This document shows, piece by piece, positions 1,611 through 11,155 of a DNA stretch of 64,000 bases (within the stretch, counting starts at the first letter, position 1; each line of letters begins with the position of its first letter). Source of the stretch: Eledone cirrhosa (taxonomy: Eukaryota); the NCBI GenBank assembly GCA_964016885.1, contig CAXHJY010000593.1, forward strand, positions 124,001 through 188,000, read 5' to 3'. Below the pieces are notes generated by a model, which saw only the letters and a list, made by a program, of their open reading frames with translations, was not told the origin of the DNA and ran no database searches. The position numbers and the translations under genes were made by a program.

Positions 1611-2058
1611 GTAATAATAATGAAATTGAAGACTAAAATCTAGAGAGGGCTCGATAAGGAAAATATATATCAAATATATAAGAACCGAAGAGCAAATATT
1701 TATTAAAATAACAGATTAAAGTTTAAGCAAAGAATCGCTGCTTTCACCCTTAACGGGATCTTCTGAAACTAACAAAGTCAATCTGTAAACGCAGAACTGG
1801 ATATTTCAAAAAACGTTGCAACCGGAGGAAGACAGGAAGACGATACTTTGGTTCATGGTGACGTTCGCTGGCAAAGAACGGGTGCCAGCGAACGTCACCA
1901 TGAACCAAGGTATCGTCTTCCTGTCTTCCTCCGGTTGCAACGTTTTTTGAAATATCCAGTTCTGCGTTTACAGATTGACTTTGTTAGTTTCAGAAGATCC
2001 CGTTAAGGGTGAAAGCAGCGATTCTTTGCTTAAACTTTAATCTGTTATTTTAATAAAT
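1611..2058. mobile_element. Penelope-like element terminus with inversion (176-bp inverted repeat arms)
   Basis: Arms 1698-1873 and 1883-2058 are reverse complements (one mismatch seen) with a 9-nt loop. It has a hammerhead-like fold followed by AATAAA and is flanked by (TA)n. Confidence 0.7.
1970..2045 (+). ncRNA. type I hammerhead ribozyme-like fold, non-canonical core CAGAAGA (mirror copy on - strand at 1711-1786)
   Basis: agttt-CAGAAGA(1991-1997)-tccc gttaa gggt-GAAA(2011-2014)-gca..tgc-T-T-aaact. Stem I is extended by acagattga/ttaatctgt. Confidence 0.6.
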
Positions 2059-2079
2059 GTATATATATATATGTATGTA

Positions 2080-2510
2080 TGAGAGATGACCCCTTAGCCT
2101 TTGTCAAGGCAGAATTCTAGGAGAAGGAAAACTCTGATATAACACCTGCAACCCTGATGGTATCCAATGATGTTGACTTGTTCTTCTTTTTGGTAAATAT
2201 CATCTTGGTTAATGGTAAATATCATCTTGGTTAAGAGAGTGGGACTGGCTTCGTGCAGTGCCTTTGCTCACTATAAAAGCTTCACAGCACAGGCATTGCT
2301 TTGTATCTGGAGATCTCTCTGCACTTGTCATCACATGGTACCATGGGCCCTGCACTATGTGTCAATAATGGTCACAAGTGTAGTCTTTGTACCAGAGTTT
2401 TCAAGTCGCTGGCTGGACTAAAAAGTCACATTCGTTCAGCGCATCGTAGGGGTTCTCCTACATGGATATAAAGTAGTGGCCGTACTCGAAAACGAGTTGG
2501 CAGCCACCAT
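2080..2510 (+). mobile_element. internally deleted BovB-like RTE derivative (5'UTR-like segment joined to C-terminal C2H2 finger and 3' end)
   Basis: ctaggagaaggaaaactctga resembles RTE 5'UTRs. 2379-2446 encodes [22 protein letters not shown], a C2H2 finger like BovB-type RTE C-termini. Confidence 0.55.
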
Positions 2511-2926
2511 ATATGTATTTATATATATATTATATATGTATATATGTATATATATATATATATATATTATATATATATATATATATATGTATATATATAT
2601 ATATATATATATGTATATATGTATATATATATATATATATATATGTATATATGTATATATATATATATATGTATATAATATATATATATATATATGTATA
2701 TATATATATATATATATATGTATATATATATATATGTATATATATATATATATATATATATATATATATATACATATATATATATATACATATATATATA
2801 TATATACATATATATATATATATACATATATATATATATATACATATATATATATATACATATACATATATATATATATACATATATATATATATACATA
2901 TATATATATATTATATACATATATAT
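2510..2926. repeat. (TA)n microsatellite, TG-interrupted left half and CA-interrupted right half
   Basis: Read directly from the sequence. Confidence 0.98.
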
Positions 2927-2978
2927 AAAATATTAAACAAATAATGAATAAACAATTCCTTATATTAAACAAAAAAAG

Positions 2979-3133
2979 TTCATTATTTAACGATCGTTTC
3001 TAGGATATATATGTGTTAAGAATTGGTATGCATATTCAACAGATCTATGTACAAAATTATACAAAATTATACAAATTATCAAGATTAAATATACATACCA
3101 ACACATATATACGCCGTCTTCAGAAATAATGAA
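2979..3133 (-). ncRNA. type I hammerhead ribozyme with very long stem II
   Basis: Minus strand reads ttcattattt-CTGAAGA-[116-nt hairpin]-GAAA-cgatcg-T-T-aaataatgaa. Stem I is a perfect 10 bp, the minimal stem III is palindromic, and the triplet is GUU. Confidence 0.8.
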
Positions 3134-3396
3134 GTATATTTATTGATAATAACAACAATTCAAAATTTCAGGTCCGTTTGGGAACAAAATTGACCAATGA
3201 AAACACAAAGGGTTAAATGCAGTTCGGTGTGTGTATATACATGTAAAACCCTTACACATATTTTACAAAATGTATGTATAATTTGTATACGCATACTAAA
3301 AGGATGGATGCACATCTCTTCTTTCCATGATATCCGGAATACATTGAGTTCTTCATACGGATTGGACACTACCGTAAACTCTTGTAGATTTATCTA

Positions 3397-5140
3397 CATA
3401 TATATATATATATATTACATATATATATACATATATATATATATATATACATACATATATAATATATATAACATATATATATATATATATACATATATAT
3501 TATATATATACATATATATATATATATATATATACATATATATTATATATATATATACATATATATATATATATATATACATATATATATATATATATAT
3601 ATACTATATATATATATACATATATATCAAATATATATGAACCGTAGAGCAAATATTTATTAAAATAACAGATTAAATCCCGTATATATATATATATATA
3701 TATATATGTATATATATATATATATATGTATGTATATGTATTTATATATAATATATATATGTATATATATATATATGTATGTATATGTATTTATATATAT
3801 ATATATATGTATATATATATATATATATGTATGTATATGTATTATTTATATATATATATGTATATATATATATATGTATGTATATGTATTTATATATATA
3901 TATATATGTATATATATATATATATGTATTGTATATGTATTTATATATATATATATATGTATATATATATATATATATGTATGTATATGTATTTATATAT
4001 ATATATATATGTATATATATATATATATATATGTATATATATATGTATATATATATATGTATATATATATATATATGTATATATATGTATATATATATAT
4101 ATGTATATATATATGTATATATATATGTATATATATATGTATATATATATGTATATATATATATATATATATGTATATATATATATGTATACATATATAT
4201 ATATACATATATATATATATATATACATATATATATATATATACATATATATATATATACATATATATATATACATATATATATATACATATATATATAT
4301 ATACATATATATATATATATATATATATACATATATATATATATACATATATATATATATACATTATATATAAATATACACATATATATATATATACATA
4401 TATATATACATATATATATATATACATATATATATATATATATACATATATATATACATATATATATACATATATATATATATATTATATATATATACAT
4501 ATATATATATATACATATATATATATATATACATATATATATATATATATATACATATATATATATATATATATATATATATATATATATATACATATAT
4601 ATATATATATATACATATATATATATATACATATATATATATATACATATATATATATATACATATATATATATATACATATATACATATATATATATAT
4701 ATATATATATACATATATATATATATACATATATAATATATATATATATATATATATATATATACATATATATATATATATATATATACATATATATATA
4801 TATACATATATATATATATACATATATATATATATATATATATACATATATATATATATACATATATATATATATACATATATATATACATATATATATA
4901 TTATATATATATATACATATATATATATATACATATATATATATATATATACATATATATATATATATATATATATATATATATATATACATATATATAT
5001 ATATATATATACATATATATATATATTATATACATATATATATATATATATACATATATATATATATATATACATATATATATATATATATATATACATA
5101 TATATATATATATATATTTATATATATACATATATATATA
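3397..5140. repeat. long (TA)n microsatellite field, interrupted at 3625-3682 by a fragment of the 1611-family element
   Basis: Read directly. 3625-3682 matches the reverse complement of 8096-8155. Confidence 0.97.
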
Positions 5141-5157
5141 AACAATTAAGTTAAAAA

Positions 5158-8410: not shown

Positions 8411-8699
8411 ATTCTCTTTTACTCTTTTACCTGTTTCAGCCATCCGGCTGAGGCCATGCTGGGGCACCGTCCTTGTTGCTACACATTTTATCTCCAGCCT
8501 GTATAGGTTCGCCACTGGTGTAGGAGGGAGTTTGTTGCTGCTGCCCTTAGGTTTCCCTCGTGTCTTGCTGTGGGCTCATCCGGGATCCTGGATAACAAGG
8601 TGTCGAGATGTTTCTTAAAGACATCCACCTCCACGTCATGCAAGTCTCGCAGATGCCTCGGCAGCCTGTAATCCCAGGCTATTGCAATACCTGCTCCTA
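8411..8699 (-). mobile_element. 3' end of a CR1/Jockey-group-like LINE (copy 1, 20-nt internal deletion)
   Basis: Encodes [43 protein letters not shown] with an aaaagagt-type tail. It is an inverted copy of 10361-10668. Confidence 0.75.
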
Positions 8700-10104
8700 T
8701 ATATATATATATATATGTGTATATATATATATATATATATATACATATATATATATATATATATATACATATATATATATATACATATATATATATATAT
8801 ATATACATATATATATATATATATATATATATACATATATATATATATATATGTGTATATATATATATATATATATATACATATATATATATATATATAT
8901 ATACATATATATATATATACATATATATATATATATATATACATATATATATATATATATATATATACATATATATATATATATATATATATATACATAT
9001 ATATATATATATATATATATATATATATATATTTATATATACATATATATATATATATATATATACATATATATATATATATATACATATATATATATAT
9101 ATACATATATATATATATATATATACATATATATATATATATATATACATATATATATATATATATACATATATATATATATATATATATATATATACAT
9201 ATATATATATATATATATATATATATATATATATATATATATATACATATATATATATATATATATATATATATACATATATATATACATATATATATAT
9301 ATATATATATATATATATATATATATACATATATATATATATATATATATATATACATATATATATATATACATATATATATATATATATATATATATAT
9401 ATATACATATATATATATATATATATATATATATATATACATATATATATATATATTTATATATACATATATATATATATATATATATTTATATATACAT
9501 ATATATATATTCATATATATATATATATATATATATATATATATACATATATATATATATATATATATATATATATATATATACATATATATATTCATAT
9601 ATATATATATATATATATATATATACATATATATATATATATATATATATATATACATATATATATATATATATACATATATATATATATATATATATAT
9701 ATATATATATATACATATATATATATATATATATATATATATATATATATATATATATATATATATATATATACATATATATATATATATATATATATAT
9801 ATATATATATATATATATATATATATATATATATATACATATATATATATATATATATATATATATATATATATATATATATACATATATATATATATAT
9901 ATATATATATATATATATATATATATATACATATATATATATATATATATATATATATATATATATATATATATATATATATATATATATATATATATAT
10001 ATATATATATATATATATATATATATATACATATATATATATATATATATATATATATATATATATATACATATATATATATATATATATATATATATAT
10101 ATAT
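8700..10104. repeat. ~1.4-kb (TA)n microsatellite
   Basis: Read directly. Exact length may be an assembly uncertainty. Confidence 0.98.
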
Positions 10105-10360
10105 AGGAACCAGTAAGACCCCGACAGCTGAGCTCAAGCCGTTTCGACGGCTAATTCTGGACTATATATATATATATACGGCTAATTCTGGACTATATAT
10201 ATATATATACATATATATATATATATACATATATATATATATATATATACATATATATATATATATATATATATATATATATATATACATATATATATAT
10301 ATATATACATATATATATATATATATATATATATATATACACATATATATATATATATAT

Positions 10361-10668
10361 AGGAGCAGGTATTGCAATAGCCTGGGATTCAAGGGCCCTC
10401 AACTCTTCAACAGGCTGCCGAGGCATCTGCGAGACTTGCATGACGTGGAGGTGGATGTCTTTAAGAAACATCTCGACACCTTGTTATCCAGGATCCCGTA
10501 TGAGCCCACAGCAAGACACGAGGGAAACCTAAGGGCAGCAGCAACAAACTCCCTCCTACACCAGTGGCCAACCTATACAGGCTGGAGATAAAATGTGTAG
10601 CAACAAGGGCGGTGCCCCAGCATGGCCTCAGCCGGATGGCTGAAACAGGTAAAAGAGTAAAAGAGAAT
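10361..10668 (+). mobile_element. 3' end of a CR1/Jockey-group-like LINE (copy 2)
   Basis: [38 protein letters not shown] with a stop at 10591, a short 3'UTR and the tail ggtaaaagagtaaaagag. Confidence 0.75.
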
Positions 10669-10735
10669 ATATATATATACATATATATATATATATATAT
10701 ATATATATATATATACATATATATATATATATATA

Positions 10736-10908
10736 GTAATAATAATAAATTTGAAGACTAAAATCCAAAGAGCGCTCGATAAGGATAAATATATATCAAA
10801 TATATATGAACCGTAGAGCAAATATCTATTAAAATAACAGATTAAATCCCGTTAAGGGTGAAAGCAGCGATTCTTTGCTTAAACTTTAATCTGTTATTTT
10901 AATAAATA
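10736..10908 (+). mobile_element. 1611-family Penelope-like terminus with short inversion, retaining only the 3' half of the hammerhead
   Basis: Same left part as 1611-1720, then tcccgttaagggtgaaagcagcg...aataaat identical to 1998-2058. Confidence 0.72.
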
Positions 10909-11046
10909 TATATATACATATATATATATACATATATATAGATTTTGAGTGAATTAACAACCCAGCAAGGAACTGGGCATATCAGAGTATTGACAATATC
11001 ATACACCTAAACAACATATGTACTTGTCTATACCATACTAATTCAA

Positions 11047-11101
11047 ACTGCCTGAAGAGGTCACAGCCAAAGATGGCTGTCACTGAAATATATATAACAG
11101 T
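11047..11101 (+). ncRNA. minimal type I hammerhead ribozyme in a Penelope-like 3' end (~10940-11150)
   Basis: actgc-CTGAAGA(11052-11058)-ggtcacagcca aaga tggctgtcact-GAAA(11085-11088)-tatata-T-A-acagt, followed by AATAAA. Confidence 0.72.
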
Positions 11102-11155
11102 AATAAACGAAGCTAAATTTTAATCATTTGACTTTTATTTAACTTTATTTTATTA

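What the first reader, a model, noticed from the sequence alone, without database searches (positions are those of the whole stretch)
1611..11150. Nest of at least four unrelated hammerhead ribozymes inside one (TA)n field
Seen: four hammerhead folds with unrelated stems within 10 kb (1970-2045 +, 2979-3133 -, 5482-5572 +, 11047-11101 +), a mirror copy (1711-1786 -) and two 3' halves (10105-10163 -, 10847-10900 +). Each lies in a short non-coding island flanked by (TA)n, and two are followed by AATAAA. Known: Penelope-like elements carry minimal type I hammerheads with palindromic stem III in their pseudo-LTRs, and some clades favour microsatellite targets. Inference: several ribozyme-bearing families converge on this (TA)n tract. 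Any read-through transcript on either strand, including a host pre-mRNA, could be cut into ribozyme-ended and possibly circularisable RNAs.
Basis: partly seen in the sequence, partly recalled or inferred. Interest (0 to 1): 0.8.

Follow-up and report, generated by a model that had tools for sequence, protein, structure and literature searches.

The report
Penelope hammerhead stubs piled in (TA)n
The four hammerhead-type RNA folds are really there, but they are likely the cut-short ends of jumping genes known to land in TA repeats, most copies here are predicted not to cut a passing transcript, and the one unusual point is a very abundant family in which a normally fixed core letter (U4) reads A while the rest of the fold is kept.

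Summary
Observation confirmed. Four unrelated type I hammerhead folds (A 1991+/1765-, B 3123-, C 5514+, D 11052+; position of core C3) lie in one 10-kb (TA)n field: 5 descriptor hits in 5,062 island bases, 0 in 60 shuffles. A and B are high-copy families (14,054 and 1,365 contigs laid) whose listed variants spare the core. A, B and C are head-to-head two-armed inserts. A, B and D resemble published Hydra-clade Penelope hammerheads, a clade reported to insert in (TA)n; C is 1.5 units of a 469-nt retrozyme-like repeat. The read-through-cutting idea is poorly supported: insert A folds into a 176-bp hairpin that buries both motifs (88 kcal/mol), B, C and D need same-family dimer partners that are absent here, and the extra A half-copies are local duplicates. 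The unusual part is family A's CAGAAGA (U4A) core, with no reversion listed in four runs; activity is untested. The scan already reported such nests and a U4A family on other DNA of this genome. Verdict: known kind of system with one variant core; modest interest.

The parts
1330..11590 (.). (TA)n field with interspersed TACA/TATG variants; the landing site
   Evidence: TA-run fraction 0.49 here, 0.008 in the rest of the window
1611..1873 (-). Family A insert 1, left arm: hammerhead-like motif (1711-1785, core C3 at 1765) running to the long end at 1611
1883..2058 (+). Family A insert 1, right arm: U4A hammerhead-like motif (1971-2044, core C3 at 1991, predicted cut after 2031) ending at the short end, 27 nt after the cut
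2928..3311 (-). Family B hammerhead arm: core C3 at 3123, about 110-nt stem II, palindromic stem III, predicted cut after 2989
3312..3397 (+). Family B partner arm without hammerhead; fused to the hammerhead arm in other copies too
   Evidence: 5 joints from 3126-3130 to 3313-3362; one contig runs on into (TA)n behind 3384
3620..3683 (+). Partial duplicate of family A insert 2 (shares its private junction)
5141..5160 (-). Family C short inverted arm (copy of 5289-5308)
5158..5845 (+). Family C: 1.5 units of a 468/469-nt non-coding repeat with one canonical-type hammerhead (core C3 at 5514, predicted cut after 5544)
5977..7766 (-). LINE fragment with RT and (CAT)n tail (RTE-like by my recall); bystander, also present outside the field
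   Evidence: (RVT_1 E 3.3e-13)
8095..8700 (-). Inverted local duplicate of 10359-10852 (A tail + TA + LINE 3' end)
   Evidence: 93-98% identity
10105..10163 (-). Possible 3' half of a fifth hammerhead (GAAA, 6-bp stem III, GUC), likely a very short two-armed insert; unverified
10361..10666 (+). LINE 3' end (CR1/L2-like by my recall; no Pfam hit)
10736..10907 (.). Family A insert 2: two-armed, same long and short outer ends as insert 1, holds only the 3' half of the motif
10940..11151 (+). Family D stub with type I hammerhead (core C3 at 11052, AUA triplet, C2.1.A1.1 mismatch)
   Evidence: family not sampled

Best explanation
The field holds short non-coding stubs of at least four unrelated repeat families, each with a type I hammerhead fold, that were likely inserted one by one by Penelope-like retroelement enzymes that cut (TA)n DNA, so the nest is likely a target-site pile-up and not a joint RNA-cutting device. 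Shown here: the folds, high copy numbers for A and B, (TA)n next to A's short end in thousands of reads, head-to-head two-armed inserts for A (twice), B and C, and local duplication of one A insert. Inferred: the PLE protein nicks both strands in (TA)n and starts reverse transcription at two fixed sites past the ribozyme, which gives one long and one short arm; each insertion leaves TA on both sides, so the tract stays a target. A, B and D are likely 3' ends of Hydra-like PLEs; C is likely a retrozyme-type passenger. The ribozymes would act in the elements' own RNA, as dimers or with the element protein, and would mostly be silent in read-through RNA of this locus. Family A's U4A core is likely a slowed or non-cutting fold kept by selection.
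For: Family level: A, 14,054 contigs (run X1) and 14,422 reads (X21) laid; 2,391 reads run into (TA)n at the short end. B, 1,365 contigs and 7,767 reads. These are records laid, not copy numbers. Constraint: in A, 0 of 13 core and triplet positions and 2 of 53 core-plus-stem positions carry a listed variant against 35 of 213 elsewhere (Fisher p = 0.014); in B no core position is listed, H17 varies U/A (35-36%), and the changes at 2984, 3112 and 3115 keep a pair with U. Architecture: A's two inserts share outer ends 86-87 nt apart, C's ends are about 69 nt apart; inverted 5'-cut copies with a one-sided tail are described for PLEs (PMC8557442 passages; PMC3846280 passages), and two RT start sites with cutting of both strands at AT-rich DNA were shown in vitro (PMC11167929). 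Motif style: in File S2 of PMC8557442 (my count) 14 of 26 Hydra rows have U10.1.U11.1 as A does, 22 of 26 have A or U at H17 as all four motifs here do, Hydra-1_oBim has G.U at the base of stem II as D does, and PLE-X1_cBra has C.A as B does; almost all Hydra families insert in (TA)n. Folding against read-through cutting.
Against: No PLE coding sequence is attached to A, B, D or E in this window, so the clade is assigned by RNA motif, ends and target only. D's family was not sampled. No two-sided compensatory change was seen; the read tables give no haplotypes and hid 18 of 58 rows (A) and 19 of 59 rows (B). B's changes at 3112 and 3115 sit at CpG sites and may be partly decay. Tails here (69-87 nt) are longer than the published 30-40 bp. 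LINE fragments without hammerheads lie in the same field, so part of the pile-up may be passive retention in a gene-poor tract. Enrichment at (TA)n was seen in one window only. Low variation around A's motif could also come from a recent sweep or conversion between arms.
Confidence: 0.82

Rival explanations
1. The nest works as a locus-level RNA-processing device: read-through or host transcripts are cut at several unrelated ribozymes into 5'-OH / cyclic-phosphate fragments that can circularise.
For: Four folds within 10 kb on both strands; C has a canonical core and HH9-like loops; locally each fold is within 2.5-5 kcal/mol of the ensemble minimum; C and D lie on the same strand and could bound a 5.5-kb piece; trans partners from other genomic copies are conceivable.
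Against: A is buried in a 176-bp hairpin (88 kcal/mol) on both strands; B, C, D need same-family dimers and occur once; no heterodimer pairing; D has a mismatch at 1.1-2.1. PLE minimal hammerheads cut poorly or only with protein. Mutations in the CUGA turn gave low activity in a full pairwise scan (PMC9901934 passage).
Confidence: 0.08
2. The stubs gathered passively: the elements insert anywhere AT-rich, survive in this unstable tract, and the tract grew and duplicated around them by slippage and fold-back repair.
For: Local inverted duplication 8095-8700 / 10359-10852 and a third piece at 3620-3683; LINEs in the field also occur outside it; a PLE RT remnant near 18.8-19.15 kb is not inside a long TA tract.
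Against: Family A abuts (TA)n at a fixed end in 2,391 reads and 146 contigs elsewhere; all seven islands checked abut TA directly on both sides; (TA)n preference is published for Hydra and Naiad PLEs.
Confidence: 0.07
3. Some motifs (A with U4A, D, the half motif E) are chance look-alikes or dead relics without any selected RNA structure, or the duplicated pieces are assembly artefacts.
For: A scores no better than two chance hits in the rest of the window; Rfam misses A, B, D, E; long TA tracts are hard to assemble.
Against: A's core and stems are nearly invariant while flanks vary; D scores 35, far above shuffles; duplicated pieces differ by substitutions and a 20-nt deletion.
Confidence: 0.03

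Closest known systems
Hydra-clade Penelope-like elements and their hammerheads (Craig et al. 2021, PMC8557442; passages, section 11, File S1 Hydra sheet and File S2 read)
   Same: Type I hammerhead near the 3' end; U.U or G.U at the base of stem II; A or U at H17; insertion in (TA)n; inverted 5'-cut copies; an octopus member (Hydra-1_Obim) is listed.
   Different: No ORF attached here, so membership is untested; all 34 File S2 rows have CUGA whereas family A has CAGA; A has a true stem-loop III and a 7-nt bulge in stem I; B has a stem II of about 110 nt; tails are 69-87 nt, not 30-40; four short window motifs searched were not found as hammerheads in the supplement.
Minimal hammerheads of metazoan PLEs (Cervera and de la Pena 2014, PMC4209133; parts 1-2 of 4 read)
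   Same: Palindromic stem III (B, C, D), many unrelated families per genome, mostly solo truncated copies, opposite-strand pairs 100-700 bp apart, weak activity that needs dimers.
   Different: That paper stresses G10.1-C11.1 with an extra base after A9, seen here only in part (C has G-C without the extra base); its reported core variant is U3-A8, not A4.
Metazoan non-LTR retrozymes (Cervera and de la Pena 2020, PMC7229834, passages; Li, Clavereau and Pollet 2026, 10.64898/2026.07.22.740005, part 1 of 5)
   Same: Family C: non-coding direct repeat, canonical type I hammerhead with 6-bp helix I, 4-bp helix II and loop contacts, strongly folded unit (z -9.5).
   Different: Unit 468/469 nt (described range 150-450 bp); only 1.5 units and one hammerhead, so below the two-motif criterion for an active retrozyme; carries a PLE-type inverted short arm; expression unknown.
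Natural hammerhead core variants (Perreault et al. 2011, PMC3088659; section 8 and passages read, figures not seen)
   Same: U10.1.U11.1 is natural and active; a U4C viroid variant is slow but viable.
   Different: U4A is not named in the text read; here it is the family norm in a high-copy animal retroelement.
Poseidon element of the green anole, PAc (Frangieh et al. 2024, PMC11167929; passages and second half of the main text read)
   Same: Two RT start sites give the tail; both strands cut at AT-rich DNA; hammerhead in the pLTR.
   Different: Different clade; tail 30-40 bp; canonical core; its hammerhead was assayed (protein-assisted, not needed for insertion in vitro), these were not.

Membership tests
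Canonical type I hammerhead ribozyme | Core C3 U4 G5 A6 N7 G8 A9 and G12 A13 A14 A15.1, U16.1, H17 | tested here: met
   B, C, D
Canonical type I hammerhead ribozyme | Same core in family A | tested here: not met
A is filed as hammerhead-like, not canonical.
Canonical type I hammerhead ribozyme | Paired 1.1-2.1 and 10.1-11.1 next to the core | tested here: inconclusive
   C both paired; A U.U, B C.A at 10.1-11.1 (both seen in published motifs); D G.U at 10.1-11.1 and C.A mismatch at 2.1-1.1
Canonical type I hammerhead ribozyme | Self-cleavage 3' of H17 | not testable with these tools
   needs an assay
Canonical type I hammerhead ribozyme | Covariation in stems | tested here: inconclusive
   only one-sided, pair-keeping changes in A and B; no haplotypes; C and D not sampled
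Hydra-clade Penelope-like element | Single ORF with RT (RWK, DKT motifs) and C-terminal GIY-YIG lacking CCHH | not testable with these tools
   no ORF attached to A, B, D in the window and no genome held
Hydra-clade Penelope-like element | Type I hammerhead close to the 3' end | tested here: met
   cut site 27 nt (A), about 60 nt (B) and about 55 nt (D) from the end
Hydra-clade Penelope-like element | Insertion into (TA)n | tested here: met
   flanks; family A loose ends
EN+ Penelope-like elements in general | Inverted 5'-truncated copy with a tail at one end only | tested here: met
   A twice, C; B two-armed with tail length unknown; D not resolved. Tail 69-87 nt against 30-40 bp in print.
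EN+ Penelope-like elements in general | Target-site duplication | tested here: inconclusive
   cannot be read inside (TA)n
Non-LTR retrozyme (family C) | Non-coding tandem repeat with canonical type I hammerhead | tested here: met
Non-LTR retrozyme (family C) | [quoted passage not shown] | tested here: not met
   1.5 units, one motif; this copy is a stub
Non-LTR retrozyme (family C) | Expression as linear and circular monomer RNA | not testable with these tools
   needs RNA data for the unit
Non-circularly permuted (SGC/CSG) hammerheads | CUGAnGA, GAAA and cut-site blocks in scrambled order | tested here: not met
   the only exact CTGAnGA words in 1330-11590 are B, C, D and one in LINE coding DNA; B, C, D read in type I order (definitions from PMC10085705 passages)
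Naiad PLEs | No canonical hammerhead in the pLTR | tested here: not met
   B, C, D carry type I cores; PMC8557442

The most novel reading that the evidence does not exclude
Family A is a natural U4A hammerhead kept by selection in a very abundant retroelement because the fold itself, cutting slowly or only with the element's protein, is a signal for the reverse transcriptase: copying stops or switches at the 5' side of the ribozyme and the two arms join there. In both families sampled, arm junctions cluster at the core and the 5' strand of stem I (A: 8 of 12 listed opposite-strand joints at 1758-1770, 41 joints not shown; B: 7 of 10 listed joints at 3126-3130). This would give PLE hammerheads a structural role apart from cleavage and make that open question testable with a natural mutant.
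Probability: 0.25. Interest if true: 0.62.

Novelty: new variant of a known kind. Interest (0 to 1): 0.35.

Why it matters
The nest itself follows from published facts: PLEs carry hammerheads, many families coexist in a genome, and Hydra and Naiad clades insert in (TA)n. What could matter is family A. What PLE hammerheads do is still open (PMC8557442 says so; PMC11167929 found cutting dispensable in vitro). A high-copy family that changed a U-turn base yet kept every other core base and the stems is a natural test: if it cuts, the hammerhead core is more flexible than mutagenesis suggests; if it does not, the fold is kept for another job, such as protein binding or guiding reverse transcription. 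Such motifs are missed by Rfam and by descriptors that fix CUGA.

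Tried and rejected
Whole-genome search: no genome is held for this window, so no genome-wide (TA)n enrichment test and no family alignment. Rfam: only C matched a hammerhead family; A, B, D, E gave nothing relevant; the many miRNA hits are (TA)n artefacts. My first descriptor gave 12 hits at two deviations, found A, its mirror and D, and missed B and C; it was replaced by a scored one. 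The two Fisher tests printed at the end used rough counts and are superseded. Exact 26-mers of A and C in metagenome contigs: 0 matches each. Runs of other organisms laid only 10 records on A (X5) and 1 on B (X6), too few for covariation. Earlier-findings look-ups by sequence and by words returned nothing; look-ups by place did. Scrambled (SGC/CSG) readings: rejected for B, C, D. ADAR hyper-editing of the A hairpin: rejected, the arms are 99% complementary; single G.U pairs in B cannot be told from subfamily or CpG changes. A faint likeness of A's upstream frame to a PLE protein end was dropped because family variants erase it. AATAAA as a poly(A) signal: no support. The PLE RT remnant at 18.8-19.15 kb was not scanned against Pfam (stop codons); it was compared by eye with the Hydra alignment. 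Literature on U4A: searches listed no paper on a natural U4A hammerhead; one search listed none on octopus PLE hammerheads beyond PMC8557442. The library lacks most subscription papers; Luense et al. 2017 on dimeric PLE hammerheads is recalled, not seen; figures (Perreault Fig. 5, S6, S7) and bioRxiv supplements were not visible and may list more core variants.

Full report
Setting. The window is AT-rich animal DNA with LINE fragments and microsatellites. Earlier notes of this scan call the genome octopus-type; I did not test that. No assembly is held. Bases 1330-11590 form one field in which TA runs make up 0.49 of the sequence, against 0.008 in the rest of the window. The field is broken by about a dozen non-TA islands.

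Observation. A (core C3 at 1991 +, mirror 1765 -): core CAGAAGA, so A replaces U at position 4; U.U at the base of a 3-bp stem II; a 4-bp stem III with a 9-nt loop; stem I of 5 + 8 bp split by a 7-nt pyrimidine-rich bulge. B (3123 -): CUGAAGA, perfect 10-bp stem I, C.A at the base of a stem II of about 110 nt, palindromic stem III. C (5514 +): CUGAUGA, G10.1-C11.1, palindromic stem III; it aligns to Rfam HH9 with a 6-bp helix I (one extra A), a 4-bp helix II and matching loops, 31.4 bits, under the gathering score of 52. D (11052 +): CUGAAGA, 9 of 10 pairs in stem II, (AU)4 palindrome as stem III, AUA triplet, C.A mismatch at 2.1-1.1. A scored descriptor gave 5 hits at score 24 or more in 5,062 island bases and none in 60 shuffles; the 52 kb to the right gave 2 hits at 25, in the range of its shuffles (0-1 in 8). 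At score 26 or more there were 3 hits in the islands and none elsewhere. The thresholds were chosen after seeing the scores. The islands are not similar to one another (best E 0.035). The half at 10847-10900 is family A; the half at 10105-10163 lacks a 5' core and stays unverified.

Anatomy of the inserts. 1611-2058 is head-to-head: arms 1698-1873 and 1883-2058 are 99% complementary over 176 nt; the left arm runs on to 1611. The outer ends lie 27 and 114 nt past the predicted cut. 10736-10907 is a second A insert: its tail is 92% identical to the first, it has another junction, and it has the same two outer ends. Pieces at 8095-8211 and 3620-3683 share that second junction; 8095-8700 is an inverted copy of 10359-10852 that includes a LINE end. 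So the A count in the field is two insertions plus local duplication. C is a 468/469-nt unit present 1.5 times with a 20-nt inverted arm; its ends lie 232 and 301 nt past the cut; the unit folds at z -9.5. B has a hammerhead arm (2928-3311 -) and a partner arm (3312-3397 +). All seven islands checked abut TA directly on both sides.

Family data. Laying four public runs on 1611-1876 at 80% likeness placed 14,054 contigs (X1), 720 (X4), 14,422 raw reads (X21) and 10 contigs (X5). Of 37 variant positions listed (18 of 58 rows hidden), none is in the 13 core and triplet positions; 2 of 53 core-plus-stem positions against 35 of 213 others, Fisher p = 0.014. One of the two keeps a G.U pair at a CpG; the other is under 1% in the three deep runs. 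Copies under 80% alike are not seen. Behind the short end 2,391 reads and 146 contigs run into (TA)n. Five joints fuse 3126-3130 to 3313-3362, so other B inserts are two-armed as well.

Mechanism. Published: PLEs often insert with an inverted 5'-cut copy and a tail at one end (PMC8557442 passages; PMC3846280 passages); a purified Poseidon protein cuts both strands at AT-rich DNA and starts reverse transcription at two internal sites that bound the tail (PMC11167929); almost all Hydra families insert in (TA)n and carry hammerheads. In File S2 of PMC8557442 (my count) 14 of 26 Hydra rows have U.U at 10.1-11.1, 22 of 26 have A or U at H17, Hydra-1_oBim has G.U there and PLE-X1_cBra C.A; all 34 rows start the core with CUGA. 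A, B and D fit this style except for A's A4. I infer that each stub is a separate target-primed insertion by a (TA)n-cutting PLE enzyme, with one arm from each DNA end, and that the tract stays a target because TA remains on both sides. C fits a retrozyme-type passenger (PMC7229834 passages; 10.64898/2026.07.22.740005 part 1 of 5). The protein link for these families is not shown in this window; earlier scan notes report a PLE ORF with CAGAAGA ends elsewhere in the genome, which I could not check. A decayed Hydra-like RT fragment lies at about 18.8-19.15 kb (-), judged by eye against the paper's alignment.

Read-through cutting. Folded alone, each motif is 2.5-4.9 kcal/mol from the ensemble minimum; in its island 4.8-10.6; in the whole A insert 88 kcal/mol on either strand, because the arms pair. 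The palindromes of B, C and D form homoduplexes (-10.0, -4.8, -3.2 kcal/mol) but not heteroduplexes (+1.0 to +2.4), and each family has one full motif here. Minimal PLE hammerheads showed no monomer activity and low dimer activity (PMC4209133 parts 1-2); the Poseidon one needed protein and was dispensable for insertion in vitro. A mismatch next to the core, as in D, was a rejection criterion in PMC3088659, though U.U at 10.1-11.1 is natural and active. Changes in the CUGA turn gave low activity in a pairwise scan, except the C3-G8 swap (PMC9901934 passage); a natural U4C viroid variant is slow but viable. So a shredding or circle-making role for this locus is unlikely but not excluded; C with a partner in trans is the best candidate. 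An ORF listing at 110 aa or more showed LINE frames and repeat frames and nothing I could call a host exon; that is not a gene search.

Novelty. The nest is a known kind: hammerhead-bearing PLE ends and a retrozyme-like stub in their known target. This scan has reported the same pattern in at least eight other stretches of this genome and a U4A family at least four times; these are unchecked AI notes and not independent support, and I reached the U4A result before seeing them. Three paper searches listed no natural U4A hammerhead; figures, bioRxiv supplements and subscription papers were not visible. One lead remains: arm junctions cluster at the 5' side of the ribozyme in both sampled families (A 8 of 12 listed opposite-strand joints at 1758-1770, with 41 joints hidden; B 7 of 10 at 3126-3130), and insert 2 of A joins there too. 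Alignment trimming at divergent subfamily borders and stem I microhomology could make this pattern, so it is a hypothesis. Verdict: observation confirmed, interpretation partly supported, new variant of a known kind, interest 0.35.

Noticed in passing
window:18800-19150 (-): Decayed Penelope-type RT fragment resembling the Hydra-clade thumb region (FLD...NHP-like stretch) by eye; not linked to the hammerhead stubs.
   Followed up: partly
window:8095-8700 and 10359-10852; 3620-3683: Local inverted duplication with breakpoints in (TA)n that carries an A tail and a LINE 3' end; the LINE copy at 8413-8697 lacks 20 nt.
   Followed up: partly
window:1758-1770 and 3126-3130: Arm junctions of other genomic copies cluster at the core and 5' strand of stem I in families A and B; read depth also drops upstream of these points.
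   Followed up: partly
window:11088-11095: Stem III of motif D is itself an (AU)4 run, the same repeat as the target DNA.
   Followed up: no
window:2080-2510: Non-TA island with a 22-nt tandem duplication and a frame with a C2H2-like stretch (C..C...F......L..H....H, recalled motif); possibly another mobile-element end.
   Followed up: no
window:1-1329, 5977-7766, 11591-12935, 42763-44482: LINE copies with (CAT)n/(GAT)n tails, 74-94% alike; three abut the TA field.
   Followed up: partly
window:47764-48525: 48-nt tandem array (15.9 copies) derived from the 3' UTR of the same LINE.
   Followed up: no
window:29610-30340: 26-nt tandem array, 28 copies, 94% matches.
   Followed up: no
window:42451-42508 (-): Weak tRNA-like match (28.1 bits, gathering 29), possibly a SINE head.
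   Followed up: no
window:10147-10210: The last 16 nt of island E are duplicated in tandem with TA (period 31); a 22-nt look-alike lies at 46869-46890.
   Followed up: partly
window:18167-18724: Low-complexity open frames (Asn/Ser-rich on -, Ile/Val/Thr-rich on +) just downstream of the PLE RT remnant.
   Followed up: no
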